A stretch of 64,000 nt of DNA from a virus (taxonomy: Duplodnaviria; Caudoviricetes), in IMG/VR virus record IMGVR_UViG_3300023105_003457, positions 1-64,000 of that record, one strand, 5' to 3'. Both the position numbers and the translations under genes were made by a program. Positions 2,782 to 20,829 of the stretch are shown piece after piece. The notes under the pieces were generated by a model. The model saw only the letters and a list, made by a program, of their open reading frames with translations. It made no database searches and had not been told where the DNA came from. The number at the start of each line of letters is the position of its first letter. Positions within the stretch are counted from its first letter, which is position 1.

Positions 2782-2812
2782 AAAGGGCGGTGCTTCGGTG
2801 TCGCCCTTTTTT
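2782..2812. terminator. bidirectional intrinsic terminator
   Basis: AAAGGGCGGTGC-TTCG-GTGTCGCCCTTTTTT between convergent genes. Confidence 0.75.
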
Positions 2813-3503
2813 AGTAGTGGAAAAAGAATACTTGGTTTCTACGAACCTCGTTGTGCCAACGGTTGCTTTCAATAGCCATACCATGATAAATTAAACTAGG
2901 AAATATAATTGCTCTATTATATTTGCTAGGAATGTTTCCGCCTTTGATCCATCTGTCTTTAGGACTCCAGGGGTCAATATGTTCTGCGTTTCTTTCATGT
3001 CCTGTACGTATAGCACTATCAAATCCATGCTGTGCAATCATCTTTGGAAAACCTTGTCTATGGTAAAGGTTGGTTCCTTCACAGCCACCTTCGTTCAAAT
3101 AGATTAATGCTGTCCAACCATGATCTAAATGTGGCCACCACCAATGTGTTTCATGTTTATCGAACTCTGAATCATAAAACGTAAATGTATTTGTTAGTAT
3201 TGTTGACGGCTCGTTCTTATATTCTTTGGCTCCACAGATAGTTGCCAGTGTTAGAGAAACACCTTCCATTCCAGGGTGTGTGCCCGAGTGTCTTCTATCA
3301 GCAAACTTCTTACCATTAAGGCTTTCTGGATCACCTTCTTTGAATAAAGTATATTTGCATTTGGTATCAAGATATTCGTTTACTCGATCAGGAAATGCAT
3401 AAAAGTCATCTATCTGCCAATAGTGGCGCTCATAATACGGAAGGTCAATCTTCTGAACATCCGCATCGGAATTCATCATAAATGGATTATCAATACTACT
3501 CAT
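2811..3503 (-). CDS. 2OG-Fe(II) oxygenase-like protein (DUF6445-like)
   Basis: PHLD...ALIYLN...GTNLY...YNRAIIF...HG...R facial-triad pattern. Confidence 0.7.
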   Translation of the reverse strand: MSSIDNPFMMNSDADVQKIDLPYYERHYWQIDDFYAFPDRVNEYLDTKCKYTLFKEGDPESLNGKKFADRRHSGTHPGMEGVSLTLATICGAKEYKNEPSTILTNTFTFYDSEFDKHETHWWWPHLDHGWTALIYLNEGGCEGTNLYHRQGFPKMIAQHGFDSAIRTGHERNAEHIDPWSPKDRWIKGGNIPSKYNRAIIFPSLIYHGMAIESNRWHNEVRRNQVFFFHY

Positions 3504-3527
3504 AGCAATATTTAATATCTCAAAAAA

Positions 3528-4805
3528 CTAAATTGACATAAGTTGATATTTTGCTAATAGAGCAGGATCATCTATAGAATGTTTTGGTTTAATATCTAAC
3601 CCTTGTACTATGCATAACCAACTAAACACATCGTACCACTGCCAATTGTTTTGTTTGATATAATCAAAATCATTTTCTACAATTAACTTTTGGTATGTTT
3701 TATCAAACCATTTAGCATTTTTTTGATTAGTCCAAAACTCTGTATTGCTGTTAGGATTATCAATATAATGTAATTTAAGAAAGGTTCTTATTTCGTGTGC
3801 TGATTTGTATAGTTCAGCATTAAACTCGTCAACTGTCATACTAGAAGCAAACACTTTGTCTAATAAATCTAGTTCTGTTATTGTAAATTCTATGTTAGTT
3901 GCTTCCATTGGCTCTACAAAATGTGCTGATAATCCTATTGCTACAATGTTGCCTTTCATTATATTCTTTTGTACACCAACATCAAATTTTATAGTTCTAG
4001 CATCTGGAACACCTATTTCTTGTCGTGCTTGATCTGGATTGATATAACTGCTGTCAAATACATATCCTCTGCCGGCACGATCTTTTGTGTGTATTGTCCA
4101 ACACCAACCATATTCTTTTGCTTCTAAGATAGTATATGGACAAAACTCTTTGAATGGTTCATTCCAAACTACTGCACTATCTACAACTCCTTTATCATTC
4201 CAAGATTCAAAGTCGTCGTTGCCAACTAACACTTTATGAAATCCTGTGCAATCAACAAAATAGTCTGCTGTGATTTCTTGTCCGTTATCTAGTACAACAC
4301 TCTTTATGTTGTTGCCGTTTCTTTTAACATTTGATACTTGCTGTTTAATAATTGTTATTTTATTCTTTAACAGTTTTTCAAGGTATTGTGGTACGAGTCC
4401 TGCTTGCCAATGTATTGCTACACCTTCTAAACTATTGGGTACTTGTTTGTTAACTACAAGATTATAAAAATTTGATAATGGTGCTACTGGTTGATTATTA
4501 GTGTACGCCCAAGTGCTTACATCTAAAAACTCTTGATCATCTCTAATATTAAAAGGATGGCAGTATTCTTTTTTACTAAAGTTTACATGATAGGTTGCAA
4601 GTTTTATTGCACCGTTGACCTCTTTAATGTATTCCTGTAAATCTATGCCCTGCCTTAACAGCCATTCTACTAGTCTGTCTGTAGTAGACTCTCCAACTCC
4701 AACTGTTGGAATGCTACTGTCTATGATAGTTATTTTATGATTCTTGCTTAACGACAATGCAGATAGCCATCCTGCTGTTCCGCCACCTACAATTACTATG
4801 TTCAT
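3528..4805 (-). CDS. tryptophan halogenase-family flavoprotein
   Basis: GGGTAG FAD motif, GVGEST, DCTGF, GWCWTIH (variant WxWxIP), FVEPMEAT. Confidence 0.85.
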   Translation of the reverse strand: MNIVIVGGGTAGWLSALSLSKNHKITIIDSSIPTVGVGESTTDRLVEWLLRQGIDLQEYIKEVNGAIKLATYHVNFSKKEYCHPFNIRDDQEFLDVSTWAYTNNQPVAPLSNFYNLVVNKQVPNSLEGVAIHWQAGLVPQYLEKLLKNKITIIKQQVSNVKRNGNNIKSVVLDNGQEITADYFVDCTGFHKVLVGNDDFESWNDKGVVDSAVVWNEPFKEFCPYTILEAKEYGWCWTIHTKDRAGRGYVFDSSYINPDQARQEIGVPDARTIKFDVGVQKNIMKGNIVAIGLSAHFVEPMEATNIEFTITELDLLDKVFASSMTVDEFNAELYKSAHEIRTFLKLHYIDNPNSNTEFWTNQKNAKWFDKTYQKLIVENDFDYIKQNNWQWYDVFSWLCIVQGLDIKPKHSIDDPALLAKYQLMSI

Positions 4806-5371
4806 ATCTTTTCTAACAACTCGCCTGCCGTGCCTTCTATTACTGGAATATCATATTCGTCAATGATTCTTTTGTAATTGCTATCCCACAAAGGTTGTAG
4901 TTCTTCACTTGCCGCTGGACCTTTTCTAATGTGGTCTTCAATTAGTTTGTGTTCAGGATTATGTCTTACAAAATAAACTTCATTAAATTGTTTTGCTTGT
5001 TCAACAGCAAGTTCAAGATACTGTAAAGGTAGTGTACCTTTGCACATTCCCATAGCATATGCACACTCATTAAACACAACATAGTCTAGTGGTAAACGTT
5101 TTACAATAAAAACATCTGCACTGTATTCGTGTTCAAGCATTTGACTCCAGTGTCTGTGATACAACCAAGCACAACTGTCTAAGTTTCCGCCTATCTCTTT
5201 GGCTAATAGTTCGCTGTCCATAAACATTGTACTGCGAACAGTTTCGGGCATATACGTGACATTAACTCCACGTTTACCCATTTTTTCTCTTTCTAATAAT
5301 TTAATAGCAACTGTGTTTTTGCCTACGCCATGGGCACCTACTACTGCTATTCTTTTGTCTGATACACTCAT
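4802..5371 (-). CDS. P-loop NTPase / nucleotide kinase-like protein
   Basis: N-terminal GAHGVGKN Walker A; NadR/AAA_28-like layout. Confidence 0.65.
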   Translation of the reverse strand: MSVSDKRIAVVGAHGVGKNTVAIKLLEREKMGKRGVNVTYMPETVRSTMFMDSELLAKEIGGNLDSCAWLYHRHWSQMLEHEYSADVFIVKRLPLDYVVFNECAYAMGMCKGTLPLQYLELAVEQAKQFNEVYFVRHNPEHKLIEDHIRKGPAASEELQPLWDSNYKRIIDEYDIPVIEGTAGELLEKI

Positions 5372-5973
5372 TGGTTTAAACTATCCTTTGTATATATGTT
5401 ATCTTTATCTTGTATATCATACTGCGAGATGTGAGTAGGGTTTAGGGTATTAATATTATACTCTAAACCAAATATTGTGTATTTGTATCTTGGTTTTACA
5501 ATTGGCGCATTAAGTTCTGCAAACCATTTTCTAACCCATTCAACATTGTTATGCAAAAAATATATTTTTCTTAGATGATTTACATTATCTCCGTAGTAAA
5601 CTCCAACTCCACTTTTTAAAATATCAATTCTACTTCCAGGTGGCAAAGAAGGTAATGGATGTCTAGGTAAGTTTTGATCGTAAACTTTTAATACTCGTTG
5701 TTGTTTATCTAAGAAACATTCAACAGCATAATAGTCACAGAACACATGATAATTTTCAACAGCAAACTCTTGTTTTATTTCTTCACTAGGGTAAACATCA
5801 AATGTTAGATTAACTTTTTGTTTGTTGACATCATAACTAATCATCTGTAAGCCATCAAAGTTTGTATTAGGCCATACAGCCAATACCATTGCTTTGTATT
5901 CTAACGCCGCATTGCCGTTAGCATCTACAAATACTTCGTTTGCTCCGTCACTACTGTACTTTGTTTCAATCAT
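5368..5973 (-). CDS. hypothetical protein in radical SAM cluster
   Basis: 201-aa ORF overlapping both neighbours. Confidence 0.7.
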   Translation of the reverse strand: MIETKYSSDGANEVFVDANGNAALEYKAMVLAVWPNTNFDGLQMISYDVNKQKVNLTFDVYPSEEIKQEFAVENYHVFCDYYAVECFLDKQQRVLKVYDQNLPRHPLPSLPPGSRIDILKSGVGVYYGDNVNHLRKIYFLHNNVEWVRKWFAELNAPIVKPRYKYTIFGLEYNINTLNPTHISQYDIQDKDNIYTKDSLNQ

Positions 5974-6379
5974 CTAACATCATTTCCTTACGGTAGTAAT
6001 TGTAAACATCAGGCACCATACCTTTCATAGGTATTGGCCAATCAATTATATCAAATAGATAATCATATACCTCTGGACTTTCGTCATAGGTTTTATAATA
6101 TGGATCGTTTCCAGCAAGTAGCATAGGGTCTCTTAAAAGTTTCCAAAAGTCCTCGTCAAAGTCTTGGCTAATCCAATACGCATAACAATATGCTACTACA
6201 TAACTTTTGCTTGGATATATCCATTCATCTACGTATTCAAAAAAGTGTCGAGCGGCATCTTCTTTGACTGCTGTAGACATTTTTATATCAACTTGATTAA
6301 GATCATCAGAGTGTTGAGTATTCAAACGATGGTATACTTCTTGTCTAACTTTCCAGTCCTGCATCGTATCGTTCTCCAT
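5966..6379 (-). CDS. hypothetical protein in radical SAM cluster
   Basis: 137-aa acidic/aromatic ORF coupled to radical SAM gene. Confidence 0.7.
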   Translation of the reverse strand: MENDTMQDWKVRQEVYHRLNTQHSDDLNQVDIKMSTAVKEDAARHFFEYVDEWIYPSKSYVVAYCYAYWISQDFDEDFWKLLRDPMLLAGNDPYYKTYDESPEVYDYLFDIIDWPIPMKGMVPDVYNYYRKEMMLDD

Positions 6380-7274
6380 AGTAATCTAACAATCCTTTAT
6401 AACCATTACAACCGTTATCTAAGTTTTTAACATATCGATAGTGTTCTGTTAAACAGATACCGTAGTAATCGCACTTCTTACAGATATCAGAACAATTTTT
6501 TTCTGGTTCTTGTTCTGCCCACTGCTTATACTCTTTATAAGAATCTAATTCTAAAAAGTATTCTTTATCGTGTTTATCAAATTCTAATACTCCAAACTTT
6601 CCATTTGGCGTAATGTACACATGGTCGTTTGAAAATGCGTTTCGTAGACCAACTAAACTTTCATTTATGTGTTGCTTATTAATAAATTTAAAGTTCTTTT
6701 TTATAGGACTTTCTAACCATTTGATAACAAACTGTTCAAAGTCTTTGTGCGTGACATTATGTGCATTTGCTTGATTAATACTGTAAGGTTTAATTTCTAC
6801 ACTTTCAATTGAACTGCATAGGTTTAACTGTTGTATCATACTATCCACATTCATATCAAGTACTTTAGGACTTGCAAGAATTAAAACAGCAATAGGCACA
6901 GGACTTTGTAGCATATTATAAAATACTTTGTCGTATTTTTCTCTTGCTTCAAAATCATAACTTACACTTAGATAAAAGTCTTTTTCAAAAAATCCATCGT
7001 GAAGCATAGAAAAGTTTGTATTAATGTTTATTGTTCCGCGATAATGTTTTTGTATTACATCACGCATCTCATAAAAATATTCTTTTTTAAGAGCACCAAC
7101 TTCGCCGCCATACAAATCAATATGATCTATTGTATCTTCCATTCTTATTTCCATTAACATATCGTCTAGTCTTTTAAGATCTATTTTATTTTGATCTGCT
7201 AGTTGCTCTTGTGTGAGATAACAAAAGTCACATCTAAAATTACAAAAGTATGTAGGGTTAATGGAAACGTTCAT
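6345..7274 (-). CDS. radical SAM enzyme with C-terminal Cys cluster
   Basis: CNFRCDFC, YGGE, C-terminal CxxCxxxxxC...C. Confidence 0.9.
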   Translation of the reverse strand: MNVSINPTYFCNFRCDFCYLTQEQLADQNKIDLKRLDDMLMEIRMEDTIDHIDLYGGEVGALKKEYFYEMRDVIQKHYRGTININTNFSMLHDGFFEKDFYLSVSYDFEAREKYDKVFYNMLQSPVPIAVLILASPKVLDMNVDSMIQQLNLCSSIESVEIKPYSINQANAHNVTHKDFEQFVIKWLESPIKKNFKFINKQHINESLVGLRNAFSNDHVYITPNGKFGVLEFDKHDKEYFLELDSYKEYKQWAEQEPEKNCSDICKKCDYYGICLTEHYRYVKNLDNGCNGYKGLLDYYGERYDAGLES

Positions 7275-7818
7275 CCGGAAACTCCATTATAATTTTGTTC
7301 AATAATAATTTTTTACTAAATCTAGAAAATAGCAAACGTGTTAGTAGACTACTATTTTTAAATAAACCAATGTAAAGATATTCGTAGTGATTATAGTTTT
7401 TTAAAAATAACTTATTCATATATTCTACTTCTGCTTTTTTATCTTCTAACTCTAATACTTTACGCAATGATTGATTTGTATTGTTAACTTTCTTTCTAGT
7501 TTCAAAATATAAACCAGGTATATGTTGTATACGATGAACAATGTTATGCATCCTAATATCAATATCGTTTCCGCCAAGTGCTAACATAACATACCAATTC
7601 ATATTTTGCTTGTCGTAATAGTGTCCTTCACAACTGCTAATAGGCAAGTATCCTTTGTCTAATAAGGCTTTTATATGAGGTCTAACACCAGGCTCTAATT
7701 CGTCAAAGAATTCTTTATCATAAGGACTTACTGTCAGTGCAACATAGCCTGTTTCGTAAACATCATTAGCATTTTTTGAAGCGTGTATTCTTCCGTTATC
7801 AAAAACTTTATTCTTCAA
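7258..7818 (-). CDS. hypothetical protein with SSCEGH motif
   Basis: ELEPGV...L..KGY.PISSCEGH; coupled in cluster. Confidence 0.65.
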   Translation of the reverse strand: MKNKVFDNGRIHASKNANDVYETGYVALTVSPYDKEFFDELEPGVRPHIKALLDKGYLPISSCEGHYYDKQNMNWYVMLALGGNDIDIRMHNIVHRIQHIPGLYFETRKKVNNTNQSLRKVLELEDKKAEVEYMNKLFLKNYNHYEYLYIGLFKNSSLLTRLLFSRFSKKLLLNKIIMEFPDERFH

Positions 7819-8497
7819 TGTCGTACTCCTTTATCTTGTTGTTTTCCCAAACAGACTTATATCCGCAACTTACAATTACACTGTGACGTAGAGTGTTTGT
7901 TGTATTAACTCTGTGAACAAAACAAGGATTGTAATTGTTTAATACTATTAACTTATTTGTTTCTATTTTTATTTTACCCGTTGTTTCAACATTGCCTTCA
8001 ATATGATTTAGACCTTTTGCTGGTTGCCAATGCGGAAAACTATCAGTATCATTAACTTGAATTTGACTTACCTTTCCTACTTCAAATTCGCCACTATCCT
8101 GTGTTTCCATATAGAATAATAACTGTATTAGTGTTCCGTCAAAACCATCCCAATGCCACACCATATCAGTGCCTGCATTCATTCGATTCACACTTACTTT
8201 AAAGTTATCAAAGGTTCCGTATATTTCATTCCAGTATTTGAAGTACGGCTCTGCTAGAACTTGTTTTATGATATCAACATACTTCTGTTGATTAGCGTAG
8301 AAGTTATCATCTAGATCTAAATAATCTCGATCCCATAAAGGATTTTCAATACCAGGATATGTGCCTTTTCCATATTGTTCAGTAAGAACAAAGCCTGCTA
8401 AATGATTTGTTATTGTATCATCTACGTATAAAGTATCAAATCCTTTTTCAAAGAATGACTGTAGGTTAGGAGAAGTTTTACTTAGATTCATTTTCAT
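7808..8497 (-). CDS. 2OG-Fe(II) oxygenase
   Basis: WHWDG (HxD), FVHRV (distal His), R of RxS; paralog of 9560..10216. Confidence 0.8.
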   Translation of the reverse strand: MKMNLSKTSPNLQSFFEKGFDTLYVDDTITNHLAGFVLTEQYGKGTYPGIENPLWDRDYLDLDDNFYANQQKYVDIIKQVLAEPYFKYWNEIYGTFDNFKVSVNRMNAGTDMVWHWDGFDGTLIQLLFYMETQDSGEFEVGKVSQIQVNDTDSFPHWQPAKGLNHIEGNVETTGKIKIETNKLIVLNNYNPCFVHRVNTTNTLRHSVIVSCGYKSVWENNKIKEYDIEE

Positions 8498-11746: not shown

Positions 11747-11751
11747 ACTGG

Positions 11752-11759
11752 TATTTATA
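11752..11759 (-). promoter_or_regulatory. T4-type late promoter inside radical SAM cluster
   Basis: exact TATAAATA on minus strand 5 nt upstream of ATG 11746. Confidence 0.6.
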
Positions 11760-11777
11760 GTAGCAGTTTTAGGTAGT

Positions 11778-14138: not shown

Positions 14139-15209
14139 CTAGTTATGTACCTTTATTAATTTCTCTGTAAATTTCGCATTTGTACGTATATTTATGTTTT
14201 CTTTTAGTTTCATCATGAGGGTTTTTGGAGACGCACACACATCTCCTTCCCATTCTAATTGGTGACAATCGCTACCGCATACGTCAAATACCGGGCATTC
14301 AAAGCATCTAGGGTCTCTTGCTGTTTCACAGGCTATAATATTGCGTCTTTTTGGGTTAAAAAGCAGTTCAGCAATAGGCATATCTAGGTGTCCATAATGA
14401 TCTACAGGTGCTGAATTTGGGCATCCTGCGATGGTTCCGTCTGCATTAATTGTAAACATCTTTTGCTCACAGTTTCTACACCAAGTACCTGCATCAGGAA
14501 ATCCTAGTTCAAATTTAGCATAGATGTTTTCCATAAACGTATGATAAATTTTGTCACGCAAATCGTGTTCAACAATAGCCTCGTGATAAGCAAGGAACCA
14601 ACTGTCTAGTTCTTTGTTGCTAGGCCATAATGCTAGATTCTTTTTAGCATTACCATCAAAGGTAATACGTTCAAAGTCTATTTCTTGTATTCCTAAATCA
14701 ATAGCATAATCAATAATATGTACAGGATCTAATTCAATTACATCACGACTCATACTTACAAATAATTTAATTGTAAATCCGTCTTTGATAAGAGTGCGGA
14801 CATTTGACTCCCATAGTTTACGTTGTTGCTCGTTTGCAAAACGTATTTTAGGATCCCAACTTGTACCAACACGTTTACCTAATGCTGTACGCATAAAATT
14901 TAGTTTTTCGTCTGTGAGTTTGTAAACAAGATTAGTAGTTGTTCCCCAACTCATTTCAGGATATAGTTTTGAAACAGCATCATACACTTTTTGCATATCA
15001 GCAACAGGTGCAAGAAAAGGTTCACCACCATGAAAATCTACATGGGCAGTTCTAAACTCAGGAAACATTTCTTTTAGTCTTGTAAACCAATCAATAATTT
15101 TATTAGGATCAAAATAAATCTTACGACCGTTGATACCATTTGTAAAACAATGACTGCAATTTAGATTACAAGTTTCTGTTGTTTTAAGATATACCATTAA
15201 ATCTCTCAT
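14139..15209 (-). CDS. radical SAM/SPASM-domain enzyme
   Basis: KTTETCNLNCSHC, FHGGEP; CRNC...TINADG.IAGCPN...CFECPVFDVCGSDC...C. Confidence 0.92.
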   Translation of the reverse strand: MRDLMVYLKTTETCNLNCSHCFTNGINGRKIYFDPNKIIDWFTRLKEMFPEFRTAHVDFHGGEPFLAPVADMQKVYDAVSKLYPEMSWGTTTNLVYKLTDEKLNFMRTALGKRVGTSWDPKIRFANEQQRKLWESNVRTLIKDGFTIKLFVSMSRDVIELDPVHIIDYAIDLGIQEIDFERITFDGNAKKNLALWPSNKELDSWFLAYHEAIVEHDLRDKIYHTFMENIYAKFELGFPDAGTWCRNCEQKMFTINADGTIAGCPNSAPVDHYGHLDMPIAELLFNPKRRNIIACETARDPRCFECPVFDVCGSDCHQLEWEGDVCASPKTLMMKLKENINIRTNAKFTEKLIKVHN

Positions 15210-15721
15210 AGATGTATTCCTATATCTCCAACAGACTTTTCTAAGTAATTGTAAGTTCCAAAACTTAAACTTAAACAGTTTGTAATATTAAATGCTTTGT
15301 GCTGAGTATTTGCTTTAATAAAAATATGTTCGTTTTCTTTTAGTGTATGATCAGTGTCTGCAACTGTGACTGTTTTTGTTCCTTCGCAGATATAAATGCA
15401 AACCTCACACGGGTCACTATGCATATCAAAACTACCATGATCTTCATACCCCCAATAAGCATGACAGTCAACAGGCTTTCCCCAATGTTTAGAAAGTTGA
15501 TTACATTTATCATAGATAACTTTATTAAATGCTTCAAAGCCTTGTATTTTAAATGTAGTTTTGTTTGTAATAAGTGTTGGCAATGATTCTATATACTCGG
15601 AGAAAGACACATAGGTATCATTAACTGGAGTATCTTTCCCGTCAATAATAGTGTAGATCAATCCTTGTGTAAAGAAATCTAAATTTGATAATGCTTGTTC
15701 AAAGTTTTGTTTTGTGATCAT
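15206..15721 (-). CDS. JmjC/cupin-type oxygenase
   Basis: CHAY...SFDMHSD...EGTK...QHKA...SLSFG. Confidence 0.7.
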   Translation of the reverse strand: MITKQNFEQALSNLDFFTQGLIYTIIDGKDTPVNDTYVSFSEYIESLPTLITNKTTFKIQGFEAFNKVIYDKCNQLSKHWGKPVDCHAYWGYEDHGSFDMHSDPCEVCIYICEGTKTVTVADTDHTLKENEHIFIKANTQHKAFNITNCLSLSFGTYNYLEKSVGDIGIHL

Positions 15722-16377
15722 AATCCACTTGTGTTATTGCTAACAACTTTATCACCAATTACAATAGGGGAGCCCGGTGATACTCCGTGGATGTTAAAAC
15801 TAAACACAATTCTTTCTTTGTTAGTAGGATTAGCCGGAACTCTATGAGGCAACCAGCCTGGAAATATCAATGCATCACCTGTTTCACACTTAACTTCTGT
15901 ATAGTAATCATTAATGCCTCCTGGTTGTTCAAACTTAGGAGCATTAGAATTTAGTGGTAAGTTCATATTTCTAAACTGTATATCACCACTGTCCTCGGGT
16001 TTTTCTAAATACATACTTACAGCAAAGTGACTACCACCGTGATCGTGTTCTTCTACATAGCCTTGGTTAGCAGTAATGTTAGTCCAACTTTTAAAAATGC
16101 TTAATTCAATATCAGGTTGATACTGCCACTGCTTCCAAATCTCTTTAACATAAGGACGCAACCAATCAAGTATTGGTTTCATCTCAGACCAACTATGAGG
16201 TGCGGTTGCTTGATTAAGAACACTAGTCTTGCCACCACCTTTCATAACACCAATGTTAGGTTGCACCATTAAATGTTCTGCTCGTACTTTTCTTACAACA
16301 TCTGTAAGGTCGCCTGGATAATGCATTTTATATATCAACGGTGCCCATGGTGTAGCATTTATCAATCCATCAATCAT
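15718..16377 (-). CDS. putative 2OG-Fe(II) oxygenase (TIGR02466-like); start reassigned
   Basis: SWTN, EHDH, SGDIQF, FPGWLPHRV, RIVFSFN. Confidence 0.8.
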   Translation of the reverse strand: MIDGLINATPWAPLIYKMHYPGDLTDVVRKVRAEHLMVQPNIGVMKGGGKTSVLNQATAPHSWSEMKPILDWLRPYVKEIWKQWQYQPDIELSIFKSWTNITANQGYVEEHDHGGSHFAVSMYLEKPEDSGDIQFRNMNLPLNSNAPKFEQPGGINDYYTEVKCETGDALIFPGWLPHRVPANPTNKERIVFSFNIHGVSPGSPIVIGDKVVSNNTSGL

Positions 16378-17050
16378 TATTGGCTCCTGGCATATAATCG
16401 TGTGCGTAAGGTTCAACACTACCTGCGGCTTCAATACTATTAGGGTCTAACTGTTCTCTTACTTTAAAGTTTCCACTAAATGTTGTACGTCTTTTATTTG
16501 ATTTATTAGGGTTTGTAAAGTGATAAGTCCAACTAGGAAATATTACAATAGTTCCTGATTTTACTTTAGGAATATAACATTTTGTATTAAACTGTTTGAA
16601 TACTCTATCAACACCTGTTGCCGCAACTCTATTAAACTCTGTATTCTCTAATACAAGTTCGCCGCCAGTTTCAACATCATCTGGGTATTCAAAGAAATAA
16701 GAACAAGCAAACATTCTATCAGGTACACTATGATCGTGTATCTCTTGGAATCCACCGTTATTGTATATGTTGGCCCAACATTCAATTAGTTCAAATGTGT
16801 ATGGGCGTGTTGGACCAAGTGAATCAAAGTATTCAGTAAAGTTTGGTTGTATAGCGTCCCACCATATTTTCCAAGGCATTTGGTCGTTCTTTTCGTGACC
16901 ACAACTGCTTGTACATCTTGATAGTGTCCAAGTATCTTTAAAATACTCTTTCTCTTTCAAAATGTAAGGCATAAATGCTTCAACAACTTTATCGTGATCT
17001 TTTACTTCACCTACGTAAAAGTGTGTTGGCCAAGCAGGGATAGTACTCAT
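16370..17050 (-). CDS. putative 2OG-Fe(II) oxygenase (TIGR02466-like)
   Basis: WANIY..GGFQEIHDH, FPSW..H, R.T.SGN. Confidence 0.8.
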   Translation of the reverse strand: MSTIPAWPTHFYVGEVKDHDKVVEAFMPYILKEKEYFKDTWTLSRCTSSCGHEKNDQMPWKIWWDAIQPNFTEYFDSLGPTRPYTFELIECWANIYNNGGFQEIHDHSVPDRMFACSYFFEYPDDVETGGELVLENTEFNRVAATGVDRVFKQFNTKCYIPKVKSGTIVIFPSWTYHFTNPNKSNKRRTTFSGNFKVREQLDPNSIEAAGSVEPYAHDYMPGANND

Positions 17051-17688
17051 GAATTCTCCTTTACTTTGTAAACACAGTTTACAATAATTCTTTTGCTATA
17101 ATCTATAGGAGGACTGCTAGTATGATATCTTGTACTGTGAAACATTACTAGTCTACCACGTTTAGGTGATAGTGTTGTTTCTGTACGCATATCAGTTAAA
17201 TCTTCTCCCCAAAATTTGTTAAAGAAGTAAGTGTCTCCATCTGCATCGTCAACATAGTAGATTACACTAATCCACGGTTCGTCATCTTTGCCTTCTAGAT
17301 GTTTATCACAATGTGGCATATTATACCAACCACGTTGCCAATTTGCTTGTTTGTGTAGATAGTTAACTTTAATTCTGTCTACGGCTTCAATTTCCATTTC
17401 AAGGTTATTCATTAGACTGTTGCTAATAATATCTGAAACATACGTAAATGGTGAAAAGACCGGACCTCTGCTGTCAACTAAAGGATGGACAAACTGATTG
17501 CAATCGTGAATATTGTCTTTAATTATTTCAGATGTTTTTTCTAATTGCCCTGCTGTGACTTTATTGTAGGCCCAATTAAAGTTTGGATCTAAAACAGCAT
17601 CTAATATTTTTTGCTGATCATCTGGATGTACACAATTATCATACATTATAAATGGATGATTTTTCTTTTCAACTACTTCAACTTGCAT
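17047..17688 (-). CDS. 2OG-Fe(II) oxygenase
   Basis: PHCD, IYYV.DADGDT.FF, PKRGR..F....YHTSS.P, RI..N. Confidence 0.8.
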   Translation of the reverse strand: MQVEVVEKKNHPFIMYDNCVHPDDQQKILDAVLDPNFNWAYNKVTAGQLEKTSEIIKDNIHDCNQFVHPLVDSRGPVFSPFTYVSDIISNSLMNNLEMEIEAVDRIKVNYLHKQANWQRGWYNMPHCDKHLEGKDDEPWISVIYYVDDADGDTYFFNKFWGEDLTDMRTETTLSPKRGRLVMFHSTRYHTSSPPIDYSKRIIVNCVYKVKENS

Positions 17689-17690
17689 TC

Positions 17691-19268
17691 TTACTCCTTA
17701 TATACAGTGCTATTTAAGTAGTCATACATTGTTTGACAATGCTTTACGGCTTTACTCCATGTTTCTTTATTTGAATCCAAACGTCTAATAATTTCTTCTA
17801 GTTGTCTATTTGATAGTTTATTATGTGCAGGTTCAATACCTTCTGTGACAATATCAACAGGATTGTATCCCATACCACTAGCAATTGGAGGAAATCCAAA
17901 TCCTGTAAGATTTTTAAGAACTAATCTATCAAAAGCATAACTCTTTCCTGATACAGTTAATGGTTGTGTTTCATCTAGCATATTTGGATCATAAGATCTT
18001 TTATAGCAGTCTTTCCAATATTGTGTATCATTCCTCTGTGTCATTGCATAATGCATTGATACAAAATTAGCGAAGTCTTTAAACATCTTTTTGCATACTG
18101 CATTATATCCGTCAATATCAAATTGACTTGCTACTTGCTTACCATTTGTTCCATAACTTCTAAGAAGTGTTCTTGCAAGTTCAATTAAAAACTTATGAAC
18201 TGTATATAATCCGTTTGACTCTAACGGTTCAATGAACCCTGCACTTAGTCCTATTGCTACAACATTTTTAACCCAAAGTCTCTCGTGTAAGCCTACACGC
18301 ATTCTTAAATCTTTAAATTCTAATTCATTAACATCAACGTCATTAGCACTCAAATACATTTTAAATTCATTTAATGCCTGTTCAGGTGTTGCGTGATCAT
18401 CTGAATATACATATCCTGTACCAATTCTACTCCACAAAGGAATATTCCACACCCAACCATTACCTAATGCTGTACAATTTGTAAACGGTTCCATTTGTGC
18501 TTTTTTATCTGTGTATGGAACTCGTGTTGCCCATGCTCTATTATTAGGCAACATATATCTATAACTATCAAATGGCTCTTTCATTGTTTTGTCTAACAAC
18601 AAACTTTTGAACCCTGTACAATCAATGTATAGGTCGCCAGTAATTAACAAACTGTCATCAAGTTGTAAACCAAGCAAACCGTTTTTGTCATCACTTCTTA
18701 CTTCTTGTACATCACTTTGTATGTGTTCAACACCATTAGGAATACAAATATTATTCTTTAACCACTGTCCAAACTTAACAGCATCAAAATGATACGCACT
18801 ATCAACTCCGTAAGTATATCCTGGAAGTTTATTATCGGTATTTTTATCAAACTTGTTTTCGTTAACCAACGCCATTACACTATGAAAACTTTCTGCGTAA
18901 TTGCTGTTAGGTGTTTCAGGCTTATACATCTTTTTATAGTGCCAATCATTTGTTCCGTAGACTGTATTATCTAAATGCGGCCTTGTAAACGGATAATGGA
19001 ATCCACCGTCGTTTTGTTTATAGAAGTTATTAAACTTAATGCTCAATTTATATGTTGCATCAGTTTCTTTCATAAACTTCTTTTCATCAATCCCTAATAG
19101 ATTAATCCATTCATGAATGCCAGCAATAGTACTTTCGCCAACCCCTACAATCGGTGTGTTAGGTGATTCAATTAGTGTGACTTGGTATGTTGGAAATACT
19201 TTACAGATAGTTGCCGCAGTCATCCACCCGGCACTTCCTCCACCCACGATTACAATTTTCTTATGCAT
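17691..19268 (-). CDS. tryptophan halogenase-family flavin-dependent halogenase
   Basis: GGGSAG, GVGEST, ATYKLSIKF (catalytic Lys), GWVWNIP, FIEPLES. Confidence 0.9.
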   Translation of the reverse strand: MHKKIVIVGGGSAGWMTAATICKVFPTYQVTLIESPNTPIVGVGESTIAGIHEWINLLGIDEKKFMKETDATYKLSIKFNNFYKQNDGGFHYPFTRPHLDNTVYGTNDWHYKKMYKPETPNSNYAESFHSVMALVNENKFDKNTDNKLPGYTYGVDSAYHFDAVKFGQWLKNNICIPNGVEHIQSDVQEVRSDDKNGLLGLQLDDSLLITGDLYIDCTGFKSLLLDKTMKEPFDSYRYMLPNNRAWATRVPYTDKKAQMEPFTNCTALGNGWVWNIPLWSRIGTGYVYSDDHATPEQALNEFKMYLSANDVDVNELEFKDLRMRVGLHERLWVKNVVAIGLSAGFIEPLESNGLYTVHKFLIELARTLLRSYGTNGKQVASQFDIDGYNAVCKKMFKDFANFVSMHYAMTQRNDTQYWKDCYKRSYDPNMLDETQPLTVSGKSYAFDRLVLKNLTGFGFPPIASGMGYNPVDIVTEGIEPAHNKLSNRQLEEIIRRLDSNKETWSKAVKHCQTMYDYLNSTVYKE

Positions 19269-20829
19269 TGTCTCTGTATATTGTCCTTTTTAAATACTCA
19301 TAAAGAGTATTACAATTTGCTACTGCGTGTTTCCATTCTTCTTTTCTAGATTCTAAATGCTCTACAATATCATCTATTTCTTCTTCTGTTAAAGGATCTA
19401 TATCTAGTTTTTCTGTAATGCGATCAATTGGATTCCAATTCAAACCAACTGCAATACAATGCGGACCACCTGCAGGTTGAAACTCGTTGTTGCTCATTCT
19501 ATCCATTGCAAGATATCTCATACCCGAACTAACAGTAATGTGAGGATTGAGCAACTCCCAATCATAATCTTTGTTAACAAGGTCACGCCAATACTTTGTA
19601 TCATTCCTTGCTGAAAGAGCATAATGTAATATAACAAAGTGTGTAAACTCTGTAAACATTTTAGTAGTTCGTAAATTAAACACACCTTTATCAAACTCAG
19701 TTGCTACAATGTCTGTGTTTTCTTCGCGTTGTAGAATACGCATAAGTTCAATAAGATATTCGTGAACAGCAAACAATCCATTAGATTCTAAAGGTTCAAT
19801 AAACCCTGCACTTAGTCCAATTGCTACAACATTCTTTACCCACATCTTTTCATGTAGGCCTGTTTTCATTTTAATGTCTTTGTAGTTTAATGTTTCTGGA
19901 TCGTATCCTAGTTCTTTAAGATGTTCTTTAACTTCTTGTAGTGCTTCTTCTGGTGTTGCGTGTTTATCACTATAAACATAGCCTTTGCCAATCCTACTCC
20001 ATAGAGGCGTGTCCCATACCCAACCATTGCCTAATGCTGTACAAGTTGTATATGGACGCATTTGTTCTTCCTTGTTTAGATAAGGAACTTGAACTGCCCA
20101 CGCTCTGTTATTAGGTAAGTGTTCTTCATATGAATGAAACGGAACATCAAACTCGCTTAACAGTCTACTTCTAAATCCTGTACAATCTACAAACAAATCT
20201 GCTTCAACAAGACTATTGTTTTCTAATACTAGATGTTTAATACCGTTATTGTCTTTTACAATTTCTTTTACTTCTTGTTGTACGTGTTTCACTCCGTCAG
20301 GTAGACAGATGTTGTCACGCAACCAAATACCAAATTTAACAGCATCAAAATGATAGGCTGTATTTTTTCCGTAGCGATAACTTGGCAACCGTAAGTCTGT
20401 ATTCTTATCAAACTTGTTTTCATTTATGAGTGCCATTACACTAAAGAAACTATCTGCGTAATCACTTGTTGGAGATTTATCTCTATAGATTTGTTTGATG
20501 TGCCAGTCGTTAAGACCAAAACGTGTTCCGTTTAAATCAGGATCGCTAAAAGGATAATGAAAGCCATTGTCGCCTTTCTTATAAAAGTTTTCAAACTTAA
20601 TACTTAACTTGTAGGTTGCATCTGTATCACGCATAAAGTCTTTATCTTTAATACCAATAAGACGCATCCAAGTGTTAATAGATTGTAATGTACTTTCACC
20701 CACACCACTAATAGGAATGTTTGGTGATTCAATCAAGGTGATATCCCATGATGGGAAACATCTAATAAAGGTAGAGGCGGTCATCCATCCTGCGGAACCG
20801 CCTCCTACTATTACAACCTTTTTACTCAC
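19261..20829 (-). CDS. tryptophan halogenase-family flavin-dependent halogenase
   Basis: GGGSAG, GVGEST, ATYKLSIKF, GWVWDTP, FIEPLES; tandem paralog of 17691..19268. Confidence 0.9.
   Translation of the reverse strand: MSKKVVIVGGGSAGWMTASTFIRCFPSWDITLIESPNIPISGVGESTLQSINTWMRLIGIKDKDFMRDTDATYKLSIKFENFYKKGDNGFHYPFSDPDLNGTRFGLNDWHIKQIYRDKSPTSDYADSFFSVMALINENKFDKNTDLRLPSYRYGKNTAYHFDAVKFGIWLRDNICLPDGVKHVQQEVKEIVKDNNGIKHLVLENNSLVEADLFVDCTGFRSRLLSEFDVPFHSYEEHLPNNRAWAVQVPYLNKEEQMRPYTTCTALGNGWVWDTPLWSRIGKGYVYSDKHATPEEALQEVKEHLKELGYDPETLNYKDIKMKTGLHEKMWVKNVVAIGLSAGFIEPLESNGLFAVHEYLIELMRILQREENTDIVATEFDKGVFNLRTTKMFTEFTHFVILHYALSARNDTKYWRDLVNKDYDWELLNPHITVSSGMRYLAMDRMSNNEFQPAGGPHCIAVGLNWNPIDRITEKLDIDPLTEEEIDDIVEHLESRKEEWKHAVANCNTLYEYLKRTIYRDNA

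What the first reader, a model, noticed from the sequence alone, without database searches (positions are those of the whole stretch)
2811..20829. Phage-encoded radical SAM / oxygenase / halogenase assembly line around a Cys-His-tailed protein: candidate undescribed RiPP-like or virion-modification system
Seen: 22 consecutive minus-strand genes, mostly overlapping or abutting. They include 4 radical SAM enzymes (CxxxCxxC plus C-terminal SPASM-like Cys clusters), 8 2OG-Fe(II)/JmjC oxygenases, 3 tryptophan-halogenase-family enzymes, a P-loop kinase-like protein and 5 unknowns, and no transporter or protease. Known: radical SAM/SPASM enzymes typically modify peptides or proteins (thioether and C-C crosslinks), and 2OG oxygenases and flavin halogenases are common RiPP tailoring enzymes. 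Inference: this is a dedicated post-translational modification pathway acting on 13581..14138 and/or other virion proteins. An alternative is DNA-base or cofactor modification.
Basis: partly seen in the sequence, partly recalled or inferred. Interest (0 to 1): 0.92.

Follow-up and report, generated by a model that had tools for sequence, protein, structure and literature searches.

The report
Radical-SAM kit for Cys-His-tailed protein
A large marine phage carries a widespread but unstudied set of four iron-sulfur "radical SAM" enzymes and an iron oxygenase that always travels with one small protein ending in an almost unchanging Cys-His repeat, which the enzymes most likely modify chemically; the halogenases and most other oxygenases beside it are local add-ons.

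Summary
In detail: 22 intact, mostly overlapping minus-strand genes at 2811-20829, with the stated enzyme classes. The array is two things joined. (1) A conserved core: cupin-type iron oxygenase, four radical SAM enzymes with auxiliary Cys clusters, two to three unknowns, and a 185-aa protein ending in (Cys-His-x-Ser/Asn)x3-Arg-x-Arg-Arg. One-to-one orthologues of the core occur in four groups of cultured jumbo phages and in chromosomes of predatory Bdellovibrionota; 381 viral contigs encode a relative of radical SAM enzyme A. Of the 81 viral loci I examined, 77 carry a tail gene and the other four are short fragments. Conservation is at the protein level. (2) Lineage-specific neighbours: two VirX1-like halogenases and three 2OG oxygenases, of a kind described for cyanophages in 2010.

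Best reading (0.62): the core modifies the tail post-translationally while it stays on its folded carrier. The chemistry is unknown. A virion role is unproven and does not fit this window's context.

The closest studied analogue is the bacterial HXS antiphage system, but membership tests fail. My searches of the held papers found only annotation-level mentions. Other agents of this scan noted the same cassette on other DNA many times.

The parts
15206..15721 (-). Core 1: cupin-type Fe(II) oxygenase (171 aa), first gene of the conserved cassette
   Evidence: Pfam Cupin_2 30.7 bits, cut-off 27.2. Orthologues at 31-35% identity sit directly upstream of radical SAM A in Atu_ph07, Phosso, RSL2 and DT01. 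H101-x-D103...H141 conserved in 23 sequences. Found in 54 of 81 viral loci.
14139..15209 (-). Core 2: radical SAM/SPASM enzyme A (356 aa)
   Evidence: CX3CX2C at C14/C18/C21 plus 8 invariant C-terminal Cys in 66 sequences. 38-51% identity to jumbo-phage orthologues. Best NCBIfam hits are DarE, CbpB, PapB, DynA, the CXXX-repeat maturase and anSME, all far below cut-off. The profile hits anSME 4K37, 8VPO, CteB 5WGG and ChlB 9GM3.
13581..14138 (-). Core 3: carrier protein (185 aa) with the C-terminal tail (C-H-x-S/N)x3-R-x-R-R; the presumed substrate. The tail is encoded at 13581-13631.
   Evidence: Sequence. The same tail is found in 5 of 5 phage lineages and in 74 strict plus 2 variant of 81 viral loci. 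The family has 868 representatives, and 137 of the best 150 end in the strict motif. AF2 pLDDT 87.9 for the alpha/beta carrier, about 55 for the tail. Synonymous codons are used freely at invariant residues.
12844..13581 (-). Core 4: unknown 1 (245 aa), follows the tail gene nearly everywhere
   Evidence: 29-33% identity in all four jumbo-phage loci. Found in 75 of 81 viral loci. phrog_20767, unknown function, E 6e-59. AF2 pLDDT 90.3, no convincing fold match.
11778..12860 (-). Frequent accessory: unknown (360 aa)
   Evidence: No Pfam, NCBIfam or PHROG hit. Found in 23 of 81 viral loci. Weak match to DT01 only.
11192..11746 (-). Accessory 2OG-Fe(II) oxygenase inside the cassette
   Evidence: Pfam 2OG-FeII_Oxy_5 32.3 bits. 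Found in 23 of 81 loci.
10194..11195 (-). Core 5: radical SAM/SPASM enzyme B (333 aa)
   Evidence: CX3CX2C plus 7 conserved C-terminal Cys in 53 sequences. 29-44% identity to jumbo-phage orthologues. Found in 66 of 81 loci.
9560..10216 (-). Accessory 2OG-Fe(II) oxygenase inside the cassette
   Evidence: Pfam 2OG-FeII_Oxy_4 35.5 bits. Found in 20 of 81 loci.
8478..9569 (-). Core 6: radical SAM/SPASM enzyme C (363 aa), the most conserved member
   Evidence: 52-65% identity to jumbo-phage orthologues. CX3CX2C plus 9 conserved further Cys in 49 sequences. NCBIfam anSME TIGR03942 44.4 bits (cut-off 349) and DynA 44.6 bits. Found in 59 of 81 loci.
7808..8497 (-). Accessory oxygenase-like paralogue of 9560-10216
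   Evidence: No Pfam hit. blastp E 2e-10 to 9560-10216. Found in 12 of 81 loci.
7258..7818 (-). Accessory unknown (186 aa)
   Evidence: No family hit. Found in 8 of 81 loci.
6345..7274 (-). Core 7: radical SAM enzyme D (309 aa) with one auxiliary Cys cluster
   Evidence: Pfam Radical_SAM 30.8 bits. CX3CX2C plus 4 conserved C-terminal Cys in 44 sequences. 43-54% identity to jumbo-phage orthologues. Found in 48 of 81 loci.
5966..6379 (-). Core 8: unknown 2 (137 aa)
   Evidence: 35-41% identity in Phosso, RSL2 and DT01. phrog_20737, unknown function, E 1e-36. Found in 40 of 81 loci. No usable Atlas hit.
2811..5973 (-). Lineage-specific tail end of the array: unknown (5368-5973), weak P-loop protein (4802-5371), short divergent flavin halogenase Hal3 (3528-4805), DUF6445 oxygenase-like protein (2811-3503)
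   Evidence: Found in 3, 2, 8 and 0 of 81 loci respectively. Hal3's nearest solved chain is 6FRL. In a sister clade Hal3 sits between radical SAM D and unknown 2, and there the tails carry Tyr.
15718..20829 (-). Lineage-specific head of the array: three 2OG-Fe(II) oxygenases (15718-16434, 16370-17050, 17047-17688) and two VirX1-like flavin halogenases (17691-19268, 19261-20829)
   Evidence: Hal1 against VirX1 6QGM, E 1e-104 over residues 4-523. Found beside the core only in L006, partly in L095. No homologues in the jumbo-phage loci. This kind of array was described in cyanophages in PMC2938197.

Best explanation
The core of the array is a protein-maturation cassette. It comprises the cupin 15206-15721, radical SAM enzymes A-D, unknowns 12844-13581 and 5966-6379, and interleaved 2OG oxygenases. 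Its substrate is the last 16 residues of the 185-aa protein at 13581-14138, (Cys-His-x-Ser/Asn)x3-Arg-x-Arg-Arg-COOH.

Inferred mechanism. Each radical SAM enzyme cleaves SAM at its CX3CX2C cluster, and the 5'-deoxyadenosyl radical abstracts a hydrogen from a tail residue. The auxiliary clusters help oxidise the intermediate. The result would be covalent changes within the C-H-x-S units. Candidates are thioether links from Cys, C-C links from the His ring to the beta-carbon two residues on, or oxidation of the last Cys (which lies in a C-x-x-S-R context) to an aldehyde. The cupin and 2OG enzymes would add hydroxyl groups.

The product stays attached to its folded carrier domain, because no protease or exporter travels with the cassette. 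An invariant core on a variable carrier is the pattern of peptide-derived cofactors rather than of variable antibiotics. The finished tail is therefore probably a fixed chemical device, either a metal- or redox-active group or a rigid cross-linked knob.

Shown: gene content, catalytic motifs, strict co-occurrence and protein-level constraint. Inferred: that the tail is the substrate, which bonds form, and what the product does.

The VirX1-like halogenases and the 2OG trio upstream are a separate module joined to the cassette in this lineage only. The short halogenase Hal3 may be a lineage-specific tailoring enzyme.
For: 1. One-to-one orthology of cupin, radical SAM A-D, unknown 1 and the tail protein with all four jumbo-phage loci (Atu_ph07, Phosso, RSL2, DT01); unknown 2 matched in three of them, not in Atu_ph07. 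Order is the same throughout; radical SAM identities 29-65%.
2. 381 viral contigs encode a relative of radical SAM A, and the best 80 plus L007 were examined. The strict tail motif followed by a stop codon is in 74 of 81. Two more have a variant. L067's contig has two tail motifs about 11 kb away. The remaining four are short fragments.
3. The tail family has 868 representatives at E <= 1e-3, and 137 of the best 150 end in the strict motif.
4. Invariant C, H and R residues use synonymous codons about evenly, and Ser uses both codon families, across 91 distinct coding tails. The constraint is therefore on the protein.
5. All four enzymes keep CX3CX2C plus 4-9 further conserved Cys. The cupin keeps H-x-D...H.
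6. The nearest families are peptide and protein maturases: DarE, DynA, PapB, anSME, the CXXX-repeat maturase and cyclophane synthases; anSME, CteB and ChlB among solved structures.
7. The carrier is a confident fold (pLDDT 87.9), and the tail is a low-confidence appendage directly after the last strand.
8. Precedents read: HxsB and HxsC mature the HxS-repeat protein HxsA, with +8 Da on an S-H-R-S-S motif (PMC13128918, sections 9 and 10). The SPASM enzyme CrpC cross-links a protein substrate (PMC13692751, abstract). The radical SAM enzyme HtkB links His-C2 to Lys-C-beta (PMC11499958, abstract).
9. In Bdellovibrionota the number of C-H units varies from 2 to 4, but the last unit plus R-x-R-R is kept.
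Against: - No chemistry has been observed. Co-occurrence does not prove an enzyme-substrate relation.
- The tail alone (three Cys-His pairs) could bind a metal or an Fe-S cluster without being modified.
- All family scores are far below the curated cut-offs. Radical SAM B, C and D have no sequence match to any solved structure.
- None of the radical SAM enzymes has an N-terminal recognition domain, since CX3CX2C starts at residues 11-27. No RRE/PqqD family was hit in the unknowns.
- Four to six radical SAM enzymes for 16 residues is more than any studied maturation system needs. Some of them may act elsewhere.
- In 15 of the 44 cassette-bearing genome-contig loci my tail pattern found nothing. 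Seven of these proved to have variant tails on inspection, two inspected loci (L121, L122) showed none in the stretch I read, and six were not inspected.
Confidence: 0.62

Rival explanations
1. The whole 22-gene array is one pathway. The halogenases and all eight oxygenases would tailor the same tail or the same protein, giving a halogenated, hydroxylated and cross-linked product.
For: All 22 genes are co-directional and mostly overlap. The close relatives L006 and L007 keep the same order. Hal3-type halogenases sit inside the cassette (between radical SAM D and unknown 2) in 7 loci whose tails carry Tyr. Among the 46 loci that reach radical SAM D, Hal3 is present in 7 of 7 with an aromatic residue in the tail, against 1 of 39 without.
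Against: Hal1 and Hal2 are found beside the core in 1 of 81 loci and the 2OG trio in 1-4 of 81. None is in the jumbo-phage loci, and Hal1 and one trio oxygenase appear in a single genome contigs locus, L095, which is probably a mis-binned phage contig. This window's tail has no Tyr or Trp. The Tyr-tail loci form one clade (SH-aLRT 99, quick tree), so the Hal3-Tyr link is a single evolutionary event. Dioxygenase and halogenase arrays exist in cyanophages; the passages read describe such an array in Syn9 and list no radical SAM gene in it (PMC2938197). Hal1 is a close relative of VirX1, which from recall acts on small aromatic molecules.
Confidence: 0.15
2. The tail is not a substrate but a ligand set. 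Three Cys-His pairs, possibly in an oligomer, would hold a metal or Fe-S centre. The protein would then be a scaffold, carrier or redox partner for radical SAM enzymes that make a small-molecule cofactor or modify another target.
For: Cys and His are classic metal ligands, and the tail holds the protein's only Cys (no Cys outside the tail in 90 of 137 homologues). No recognition domain, protease or exporter is present. An earlier first-reader note of this scan raised the same idea (e1-5888989).
Against: The Ser/Asn at the fourth position of each unit and the R-x-R-R end are as conserved as Cys and His, which ligand duty alone does not explain. The enzymes' nearest families are peptide and protein maturases, not cofactor synthases. 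The closest analogue, HXS, does modify its H-x-S motif.
Confidence: 0.13
3. The matured protein is an HXS-like effector. Like HxsA, which binds DNA and blocks genome entry, it would let the phage exclude competing phages, or serve predatory bacteria inside the prey periplasm. It would not be a virion part.
For: Parallels with HXS are several radical SAM enzymes, H-x-S repeats rich in basic residues, and a small helper protein (PMC13128918). In this window the cassette lies among replication and auxiliary genes, not structural genes. Bdellovibrionota carry it among housekeeping genes.
Against: No HxsA, HxsB, HxsC or HxsD membership. No peptidoglycan-binding domain in the tail protein. I ran no signal-peptide predictor. 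In the four cultured-phage loci the cassette follows virion or baseplate genes. Tail-fibre PHROGs were hit by upstream neighbours in other loci.
Confidence: 0.08
4. The cassette acts on DNA bases or a nucleotide cofactor.
For: Phages often modify DNA, and radical SAM enzymes include QueE and MoaA. Weak MoaA, QueE and viperin hits appear in the NCBIfam lists. A Vut_1 transporter lies at 60391-61011; from recall, this family takes up queuosine precursors.
Against: Those hits cover only the common N-terminal radical SAM core and score below the maturase hits. Full SPASM Cys sets are typical of peptide and protein maturases. The strict linkage to the tail protein has no place in a nucleotide pathway.
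Confidence: 0.03

Closest known systems
HXS antiphage system (HxsA/B/C/D; Li et al., Nat Commun 2026, PMC13128918; outline and sections 9 and 10 read)
   Same: Several radical SAM enzymes mature a folded protein, not a short peptide, at His-x-Ser repeats rich in basic residues. The modification maps to an S-H-R-S-S motif (+8 Da). A small helper protein binds one of the enzymes.
   Different: No sequence membership: HxsB 15.6 bits against 370, HxsC 26.2 against 267.9, and no HxsA or HxsD hit. Here each His is preceded by an invariant Cys. The repeats sit at the extreme C-terminus and end in R-x-R-R. There are four to six enzymes plus an iron oxygenase. No peptidoglycan-binding domain is present. 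The carriers are phages and predatory bacteria, not Enterobacteria defending themselves.
Anaerobic sulfatase-maturating enzyme (anSME; TIGR03942; PDB 4K36-4K39)
   Same: A leaderless radical SAM/SPASM enzyme acting on a Cys or Ser of a folded protein. It is the best solved-structure hit of the radical SAM A profile (E 1e-7) and a top NCBIfam hit of radical SAM C (44.4 bits). The last tail unit, C-H-x-S-R, resembles the sulfatase motif C-x-P/A-x-R (motif recalled, not from a call).
   Different: Scores are far below the cut-off of 349. The +2 position is G, S or N, not P or A. Three repeats and four enzymes are present. No sulfatase domain.
Protein and peptide thioether or cyclophane maturases: CrpC/CrpA (PMC13692751, abstract), PapB, QhpD, and three-residue cyclophane synthases such as HtkB and HaaB (PMC11499958, abstract)
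   Same: SPASM enzymes that cross-link Cys or aromatic and His side chains to neighbouring carbons in short repeated motifs. CXXX-repeat, PapB, YhhB, XyeB and GrrM models all give weak hits.
   Different: None reaches a cut-off. Those systems use one enzyme per motif class, and as I recall they often have a recognition domain and variable cores. Here the core is invariant and four enzymes are conserved together.
Cyanophage tandem dioxygenase and tryptophan-halogenase arrays (Iyer et al., NAR 2010, PMC2938197, passages read) and the viral halogenase VirX1 (PDB 6QGM)
   Same: The head of the array (15718-20829), with three 2OG oxygenases and two halogenases, is of this kind. Hal1 matches VirX1 at E 1e-104 over its full length.
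   Different: In the passages read, radical SAM enzymes are named only for bacterial gene neighbourhoods, and the Syn9 cyanophage array is listed without any; no Cys-His-tailed protein is mentioned. The fusion with the cassette is specific to this lineage (L006, L007 and the window).

Membership tests
Radical SAM superfamily | CX3CX2C motif for the SAM-binding 4Fe-4S cluster near the N-terminus | tested here: met
   Present in all four proteins and 100% conserved in 44-66 homologues each. Pfam PF04055 scores are 30.8, 29.4, 24.9 and 27.7 bits against a cut-off of 29.5.
SPASM/twitch subclass of radical SAM enzymes | C-terminal Cys set for one (twitch) or two (SPASM, 7-8 Cys) auxiliary 4Fe-4S clusters | tested here: met
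   Conserved further Cys: A 8, B 7, C 9, D 4. The SPASM domain model TIGR04085 gives 26.4 bits (A) and 23.1 bits (C) against a cut-off of 27, so the HMM alone is borderline.
HXS system (TIGR03976-03979) | HxsA, HxsB, HxsC and HxsD family membership by the curated models | tested here: not met
   HxsB 15.6 bits (cut-off 370), HxsC 26.2 bits (cut-off 267.9). No HxsA or HxsD hit for the tail protein or the unknowns.
HXS system | Effector with tandem His-x-Ser repeats | tested here: inconclusive
   Three H-x-S/N units are present, each preceded by Cys. HxsA has five HxS repeats without this Cys context (PMC13128918).
HXS system | Effector with a peptidoglycan-binding domain | tested here: not met
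   No Pfam family in the tail protein.
Anaerobic sulfatase maturase (TIGR03942) | Equivalog score, and a substrate motif C/S-x-P/A-x-R in a sulfatase | tested here: not met
   44.4 bits (C) and 30.0 bits (A) against 349.45. The last tail unit is C-H-[G/S/N]-S-R. There is no sulfatase domain. The sulfatase motif itself is recalled.
RiPP biosynthetic cluster | Short precursor with a conserved leader and a variable core, a leader protease, and usually an exporter or RRE | tested here: not met
   The carrier is a folded domain of about 170 aa that varies (19% mean column identity), while the core is invariant. No protease, transporter or RRE/PqqD family is among the 22 genes.
Three-residue cyclophane synthases (triceptides: XyeB, GrrM, FxsB, YhhB) | Family membership, and an aromatic-x-x motif in the substrate | tested here: inconclusive
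   H-x-S/N fits the motif form. Model scores are 16-33 bits against cut-offs of 310-450. No chemistry was tested.
Fe(II)/2OG (cupin-fold) oxygenase | H-x-D/E...H facial triad in a double-stranded beta-helix | tested here: met
   Cupin 15206-15721: Cupin_2 30.7 bits against 27.2, with H101, D103 and H141 conserved in 23 sequences. Five other genes pass 2OG-FeII cut-offs.
Flavin-dependent (tryptophan-type) halogenase, VirX1-like | Trp_halogenase family membership and full-length similarity to VirX1 | tested here: met
   PF04820 359 and 345 bits for Hal1 and Hal2. Hal1 against 6QGM E 1e-104, residues 4-523. Hal3 scores 250 bits but is nearest to 6FRL. Catalytic residues were not checked.
Virion structural protein | Detection in purified particles, or a structural-gene context | not testable with these tools
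   Here the cassette lies beside DNA ligase and replication genes, and the tail sheath and terminase are 65-80 kb away. Cultured-phage records call the homologues 'hypothetical protein'. The Atu_ph07 paper says that most virion proteins are encoded in clusters including 'CDS 170-215', and the RefSeq tag of the tail gene is gp170. The table naming the detected proteins is a supplement, which was closed (PMC6102473).

The most novel reading that the evidence does not exclude
The four radical SAM enzymes and the cupin rebuild the (Cys-His-x-Ser)n-Arg tail into a new protein-bound prosthetic group. This would be a cross-linked sulfur-imidazole, metal- or redox-active device kept on a swappable carrier domain. 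Phages and predatory Bdellovibrionota would both use it when attacking Gram-negative cells. In this marine lineage, added flavin halogenases would decorate it further, giving a halogenated, enzyme-built cofactor on a viral protein.
Probability: 0.12. Interest if true: 0.95.

Novelty: new variant of a known kind. Interest (0 to 1): 0.78.

Why it matters
Radical SAM maturation of whole proteins is known from only a handful of cases, such as sulfatases, the QHNDH gamma subunit, CrpA and HxsA. Here a 16-residue motif under very strong protein-level constraint is tied to four such enzymes. The tail-protein family has 868 representative clusters, and 381 viral contigs encode radical SAM enzyme A. 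The cassette is in cultured jumbo phages of Ralstonia, Burkholderia, Agrobacterium, Sinorhizobium and Pseudomonas, and in chromosomes of predatory bacteria. No function or chemistry appears in any paper I could search.

Solving it would probably reveal new radical chemistry on Cys-His units, and a shared tool of two very different kinds of bacterial predator. The system can be tested directly, because cultured phages and E. coli co-expression are at hand.

For this window in particular, it separates a conserved cassette from the already described halogenase and dioxygenase arrays. It also gives a concrete lead that Hal3-type halogenases co-occur with Tyr-bearing tails.

Tried and rejected
- **tblastn of the tail protein against phage records.** No match. 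The carrier domain is too divergent and the tail too short, so I reached the homologues through radical SAM A instead.
- **megablast of the whole region.** It gave only a 61-nt match to cyanophage P-RSM6.
- **Fold of the carrier.** No PDB match by Foldseek (best E 0.2). The best VIA Z was 5.5 to a designed protein (rmsd 5.1, 131 aligned). BFVD returned only uncharacterised members of its own family.
- **Fold of unknown 1.** Best Foldseek E was 0.2. Best VIA Z was 4.7 over 54 residues. No fold assignment is made; absence of a match shows nothing.
- **ESM Atlas for unknown 2.** No usable hit.
- **Complex prediction of unknown 1 with the tail protein.** No verdict (score 0.00, controls not run). 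This is not evidence either way.
- **Promoter and terminator scans of 2000-21500.** At chance level: 89 found against 88.4 expected, and 10 against 9.4.
- **T4-type late motif TATAAATA.** 4 in the window against 7.3 expected, so not enriched.
- **Hal3-Tyr correlation as independent evidence.** Rejected, because all Tyr-tail loci form one clade. That tree is the quick one, since the careful search did not finish. It has 66 rows: unique sequences covering at least 80% of the query, with duplicates and shorter hits dropped.
- **'T4-like cyanophage' identity.** Not supported. The replicative helicase is closest to Atu_ph07 and the PA5oct group, and there are no tRNAs. The host is unknown.
- **Tail-less clade L060/L067/L068.** Resolved for L067, whose contig has two tail motifs outside the fetched stretch. 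L060 and L068 are fragments of 15.0 and 8.8 kb.
- **Literature.** Searches found only annotation-level mentions of these genes (PMC11898562, PMC8066314, PMC5468394; passages read). Subscription journals and supplements were not searchable.
- **Earlier scan notes.** One states that part of a like claim 'fell' on checking. I could not learn which part, so I make no virion claim.
- **Correction.** My note says 73 of 81; the correct count is 74.

Full report
**1. What is there**

Searches show 22 intact minus-strand ORFs between 2811 and 20829. Eighteen of the 21 junctions overlap, one abuts and one has a 2-nt gap. Only two gaps are longer, at 24 and 31 nt. The co-directional block continues upstream through a DNA ligase (21339-22673) to about 33 kb.

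Pfam gives the following:
- three tryptophan-halogenase-family proteins;
- four Radical_SAM proteins, with scores near the cut-off;
- five 2OG-Fe(II) oxygenases;
- a cupin;
- a borderline DUF6445;
- a weak P-loop protein.

A further oxygenase-like gene, 7808-8497, is recognisable only as a paralogue of 9560-10216. No protease or transporter family was hit. The 185-aa protein at 13581-14138 ends in three Cys-His-x-x units followed by Ser-Arg-Gly-Arg-Arg and has no other Cys.

**2. The genome**

The window is the first 64 kb of a single 116,336-base contig. The contig also encodes a 1115-aa tail sheath, a terminase, UvsX and a 1952-aa virion structural protein at 79-106 kb. The replicative helicase is closest to Atu_ph07 and the PA5oct group of jumbo phages (52-54% identity). 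There are no tRNAs in the window.

It is therefore a large marine-type myovirus of unknown host. A cyanophage identity is suggested only by a 61-nt DNA match to P-RSM6 and by VirX1-like halogenases. The cassette's neighbours here are replication and auxiliary genes, not structural genes.

**3. A conserved core inside the array**

Radical SAM A (14139-15209) has homologues of 38-51% identity in 15 phage records, which come from four groups of cultured jumbo phages. In Atu_ph07, RSL2, Phosso and DT01 the neighbourhood reads cupin, radical SAM A, a protein with the same tail, unknown 1, then further radical SAM genes.

An all-against-all blastp shows one-to-one orthologues:

| Gene | Identity to jumbo-phage orthologues |
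|---|---|
| Cupin | 31-35% |
| Radical SAM A | 38-51% |
| Radical SAM B | 29-44% |
| Radical SAM C | 52-65% |
| Radical SAM D | 43-54% |
| Unknown 1 | 29-33% |
| Unknown 2 | 35-41%, in three of the four |

The tail protein also matches, although its carrier domain is barely alignable. The three halogenases, the 2OG trio at 15718-17688, the P-loop protein and DUF6445 have no counterpart in those loci.

**4. How tight is the link to the tail?**

A pattern scan of IMG/VR with an alignment of radical SAM A found 381 contigs encoding a relative. The best 80 were kept, and L007 came. A six-frame scan of these 81 loci gave:
- the strict motif (CHxx three times, then RxRR and a stop codon) in 74;
- a variant in 2 (L016, L017);
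- nothing in 5.

Of those five, L010 and L021 end within 150 nt of radical SAM A. L060 and L068 are fragments of 15.0 and 8.8 kb. L067's contig carries two tail motifs about 11 kb away, just outside the fetched stretch. So there is no informative counter-example.

Gene counts by blastp in the same 81 loci are lower bounds, because many loci are cut:

| Gene | Loci of 81 |
|---|---|
| Unknown 1 | 75 |
| Radical SAM B | 66 |
| Radical SAM C | 59 |
| Cupin | 54 |
| Radical SAM D | 48 |
| Unknown 2 | 40 |
| Oxygenase 11192 | 23 |
| Unknown 11778 | 23 |
| Oxygenase 9560 | 20 |
| Oxygenase 7808 | 12 |
| Hal3 | 8 |
| Unknown 7258 | 8 |
| Oxygenase 16370 | 4 |
| Unknown 5368 | 3 |
| P-loop protein | 2 |
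| Oxygenase 17047 | 2 |
| Hal1, Hal2, oxygenase 15718 | 1 each |
| DUF6445 | 0 |

A profile of 53 tail proteins finds 868 representative proteins (50% clusters) at E <= 1e-3 and 602 at E <= 1e-10. Of the best 150, 137 end in the strict motif, one ends in the variant, and 12 end otherwise, mostly in truncated or slightly altered forms.

**5. The constraint is on the protein**

Across 91 distinct tail-coding sequences, Cys uses TGT and TGC about equally and His uses CAT and CAC about equally. Arg uses five or six codons, and the conserved Ser uses both the TCN and AGY families. Positions 3, 7, 11 and 14 vary. Position 4, 8 and 12 is Ser, or less often Asn, Ala or Asp.

The carrier varies widely. 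Mean column identity is 19% and lengths run from 125 to 309 aa. Several loci carry two tandem tail genes with different carriers: L049, L064-066, L097, L098, L103, L129 and L067's contig.

**6. The enzymes**

All four radical SAM proteins keep CX3CX2C, starting at residues 11-27, so there is no room for an N-terminal recognition domain. They keep 8, 7, 9 and 4 further conserved Cys (A, B, C, D). That means full SPASM sets in A-C and a single auxiliary cluster in D.

The NCBIfam hits are all far below cut-off. They are dominated by peptide and protein maturases: DarE, DynA, PapB, CbpB, the CXXX-repeat maturase, anSME, cyclophane synthases and HxsC. The radical SAM A profile hits anSME 4K37, 8VPO, CteB 5WGG and ChlB 9GM3. 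Radical SAM B, C and D hit no solved chain. The cupin keeps H-x-D...H.

**7. The unknowns**

The carrier folds confidently (AF2 pLDDT 87.9, pTM 0.81). It has three helices packed on a four-stranded sheet, and the tail follows directly after the last strand at pLDDT about 55. Unknown 1 also folds confidently (pLDDT 90.3).

Neither has a convincing relative in the PDB. BFVD returns only uncharacterised phage proteins of the same family, including Atu_ph07's. PHROGs lists unknown 1, unknown 2 and the tail protein under families of unknown function.

**8. Not only phages**

The same alignment found 48 loci in species-representative genomes. Most are Bdellovibrionota MAGs (Bacteriovoracaceae, Bdellovibrionaceae, Halobacteriovoraceae, Pseudobdellovibrionaceae, Oligoflexia). 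Three sit on contigs of 1.3-2.8 Mb.

Their flanks are housekeeping genes: YchF, an Mrp/NUBPL ATPase, an SLT transglycosylase, RecF/RecN-like, a DinG-like helicase, FabH and an acyl-CoA ligase. These are chromosomal copies, not evident prophages.

My tail pattern found a tail in 29 of the 44 cassette-bearing loci. On inspection of nine of the other 15, seven have variant tails with two to four C-H units that always end in C-H-x-S-R-x-R-R, and two (L121, L122) showed none in the stretch I read. Six were not inspected. The last unit plus the basic end is therefore the most constant element. This agrees with earlier notes of this scan (e1-6111466) and was tested here.

**9. Virion link**

In the four cultured-phage loci the cassette follows virion structural, baseplate or spike genes. 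I took the largest ORF within 5 kb upstream of radical SAM A in 33 viral loci. Tail-fibre PHROGs were hit by 2-4 members each, and structural, baseplate and sheath families by 1-2 each. The output does not give a union count.

[quoted passage not shown] The RefSeq tag of the tail gene is gp170. The table of detected proteins is a supplement, which was closed.

Against a structural role:
- the records call the homologues 'hypothetical protein';
- this window's cassette lies far from structural genes;
- predatory bacteria carry it in their chromosomes.

I therefore leave the virion role open.

**10. The lineage-specific parts**

Hal1 matches VirX1 (6QGM) at E 1e-104 over its full length. Hal2 is 54% identical to Hal1. 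Together with the three 2OG oxygenases they form the kind of array that Iyer et al. described in cyanophages such as Syn9 and read as secondary-metabolite tailoring (PMC2938197). Beside the cassette they occur only in L006, with Hal1 and one oxygenase about 8 kb away on the other strand in L095.

Hal3 is different. It is short and nearest to 6FRL. In seven loci of a sister clade it sits inside the cassette, between radical SAM D and unknown 2, and those tails carry Tyr at the x positions. Among the 46 loci that reach radical SAM D, Hal3 is present in 7 of 7 with an aromatic tail residue and in 1 of 39 without. All seven lie in one clade (SH-aLRT 99, quick tree), and two pairs are near-duplicates. 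This is one evolutionary event, so it is a lead and not a test. The window's own tail has no aromatic residue.

**11. Mechanism**

The best-supported reading is that the cassette modifies the tail covalently while it remains on its carrier. The grounds are the strict co-occurrence, the maturase-like enzymes, the protein-level constraint on every second residue, and the lack of a protease or exporter.

An invariant core on a variable carrier is the opposite of a classical RiPP. From recall, it is the pattern of peptide-derived cofactors such as PQQ and mycofactocin, and of cross-linked subunits such as QhpC. Which bonds form cannot be told from sequence.

Precedents exist for:
- thioethers on proteins (CrpC, PMC13692751, abstract);
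- His-C2 to C-beta links (HtkB, PMC11499958, abstract);
- Cys to formylglycine in a C-x-x-x-R context (anSME; motif recalled);
- a +8 Da change on S-H-R-S-S (HXS, PMC13128918, section 9).

**12. Comparison and novelty**

The closest studied system in logic is HXS, but every membership test against it fails. The nearest enzyme by sequence is anSME, also far below cut-off.

Eight literature searches found only annotation lists naming these genes in jumbo-phage papers. Other agents of this scan have reported the same cassette on other DNA many times. One note says that part of a like claim failed a later check, without saying which part.

I rate it a new variant of a known kind, namely radical SAM maturation of a protein, with high interest.

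Noticed in passing
window 11752-11759 (minus strand): A T4-type late-promoter-like TATAAATA lies in the only sizeable intergenic gap inside the cassette (11746-11778), just upstream of oxygenase 11192 and radical SAM B. The motif is not enriched in the window (4 found, 7.3 expected).
   Followed up: partly
window 23690-24259, 25692-26354, 26631-27560, 28896-29906: Upstream on the same strand lie two more 2OG-Fe(II) oxygenases, a LysM protein and a PG_binding_1 protein. This phage therefore carries at least ten oxygenase-like genes and two peptidoglycan-binding proteins within 30 kb.
   Followed up: no
window 32000-48000: A stretch with G+C of 0.40-0.43 (0.34-0.35 elsewhere) and positive GC skew is filled with short plus-strand ORFs that have hardly any family hits. 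It has no tRNAs. It may be an early-gene block or a segment of other origin.
   Followed up: no
window 32475-33230: A 251-aa ORF matches only parts of the N-terminal and central domains of UDP-glucose/GDP-mannose dehydrogenases. It may be a truncated gene.
   Followed up: no
window 52008-52991, 53344-54893, 60391-61011: These are a carbamoyltransferase N-terminal-domain ORF, a tandem pair of DUF6071 paralogues and a Vut_1 transporter. A full Nol-like carbamoyltransferase lies at 109288-111105 of the contig.
   Followed up: no
window 15933-15993: The only megablast match of the region (88.5% over 61 nt, cyanophage P-RSM6) falls in the 2OG oxygenase gene 15718-16434, yet the P-RSM6 feature under it is annotated 'tryptophan halogenase'.
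   Followed up: no
L023, L036, L050, L086 (viral); L099, L100, L103-L107, L109, L114, L126 (Bdellovibrionota): A second, deeply diverged paralogue of radical SAM A sits between the tail gene and unknown 1. In the quick tree the viral copies form their own clade on a very long branch.
   Followed up: partly
L101, L102, L116, L118, L132, L096, L120, L115: Bdellovibrionota tails vary in the number of Cys-His units (two to four, some with a Pro-rich spacer), whereas phage tails almost always have three. The last unit plus R-x-R-R is always kept.
   Followed up: partly
P0042 (453 aa), P0110 (276 aa): One family member carries an N-terminal Gly_rich_2 domain (PF21722) before the carrier and tail. 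Another shows a Peripla_BP_3 piece, which may be a gene-call artefact. BFVD also lists proteins of 504-660 aa with this domain in one uncultured myovirus.
   Followed up: no
L111 12016-19083: In one Bacteriovoracaceae chromosome a 2355-aa RCC1-repeat/Big_2 protein lies directly beside the tail gene and unknown 1. It may be a surface or adhesin-like partner.
   Followed up: no
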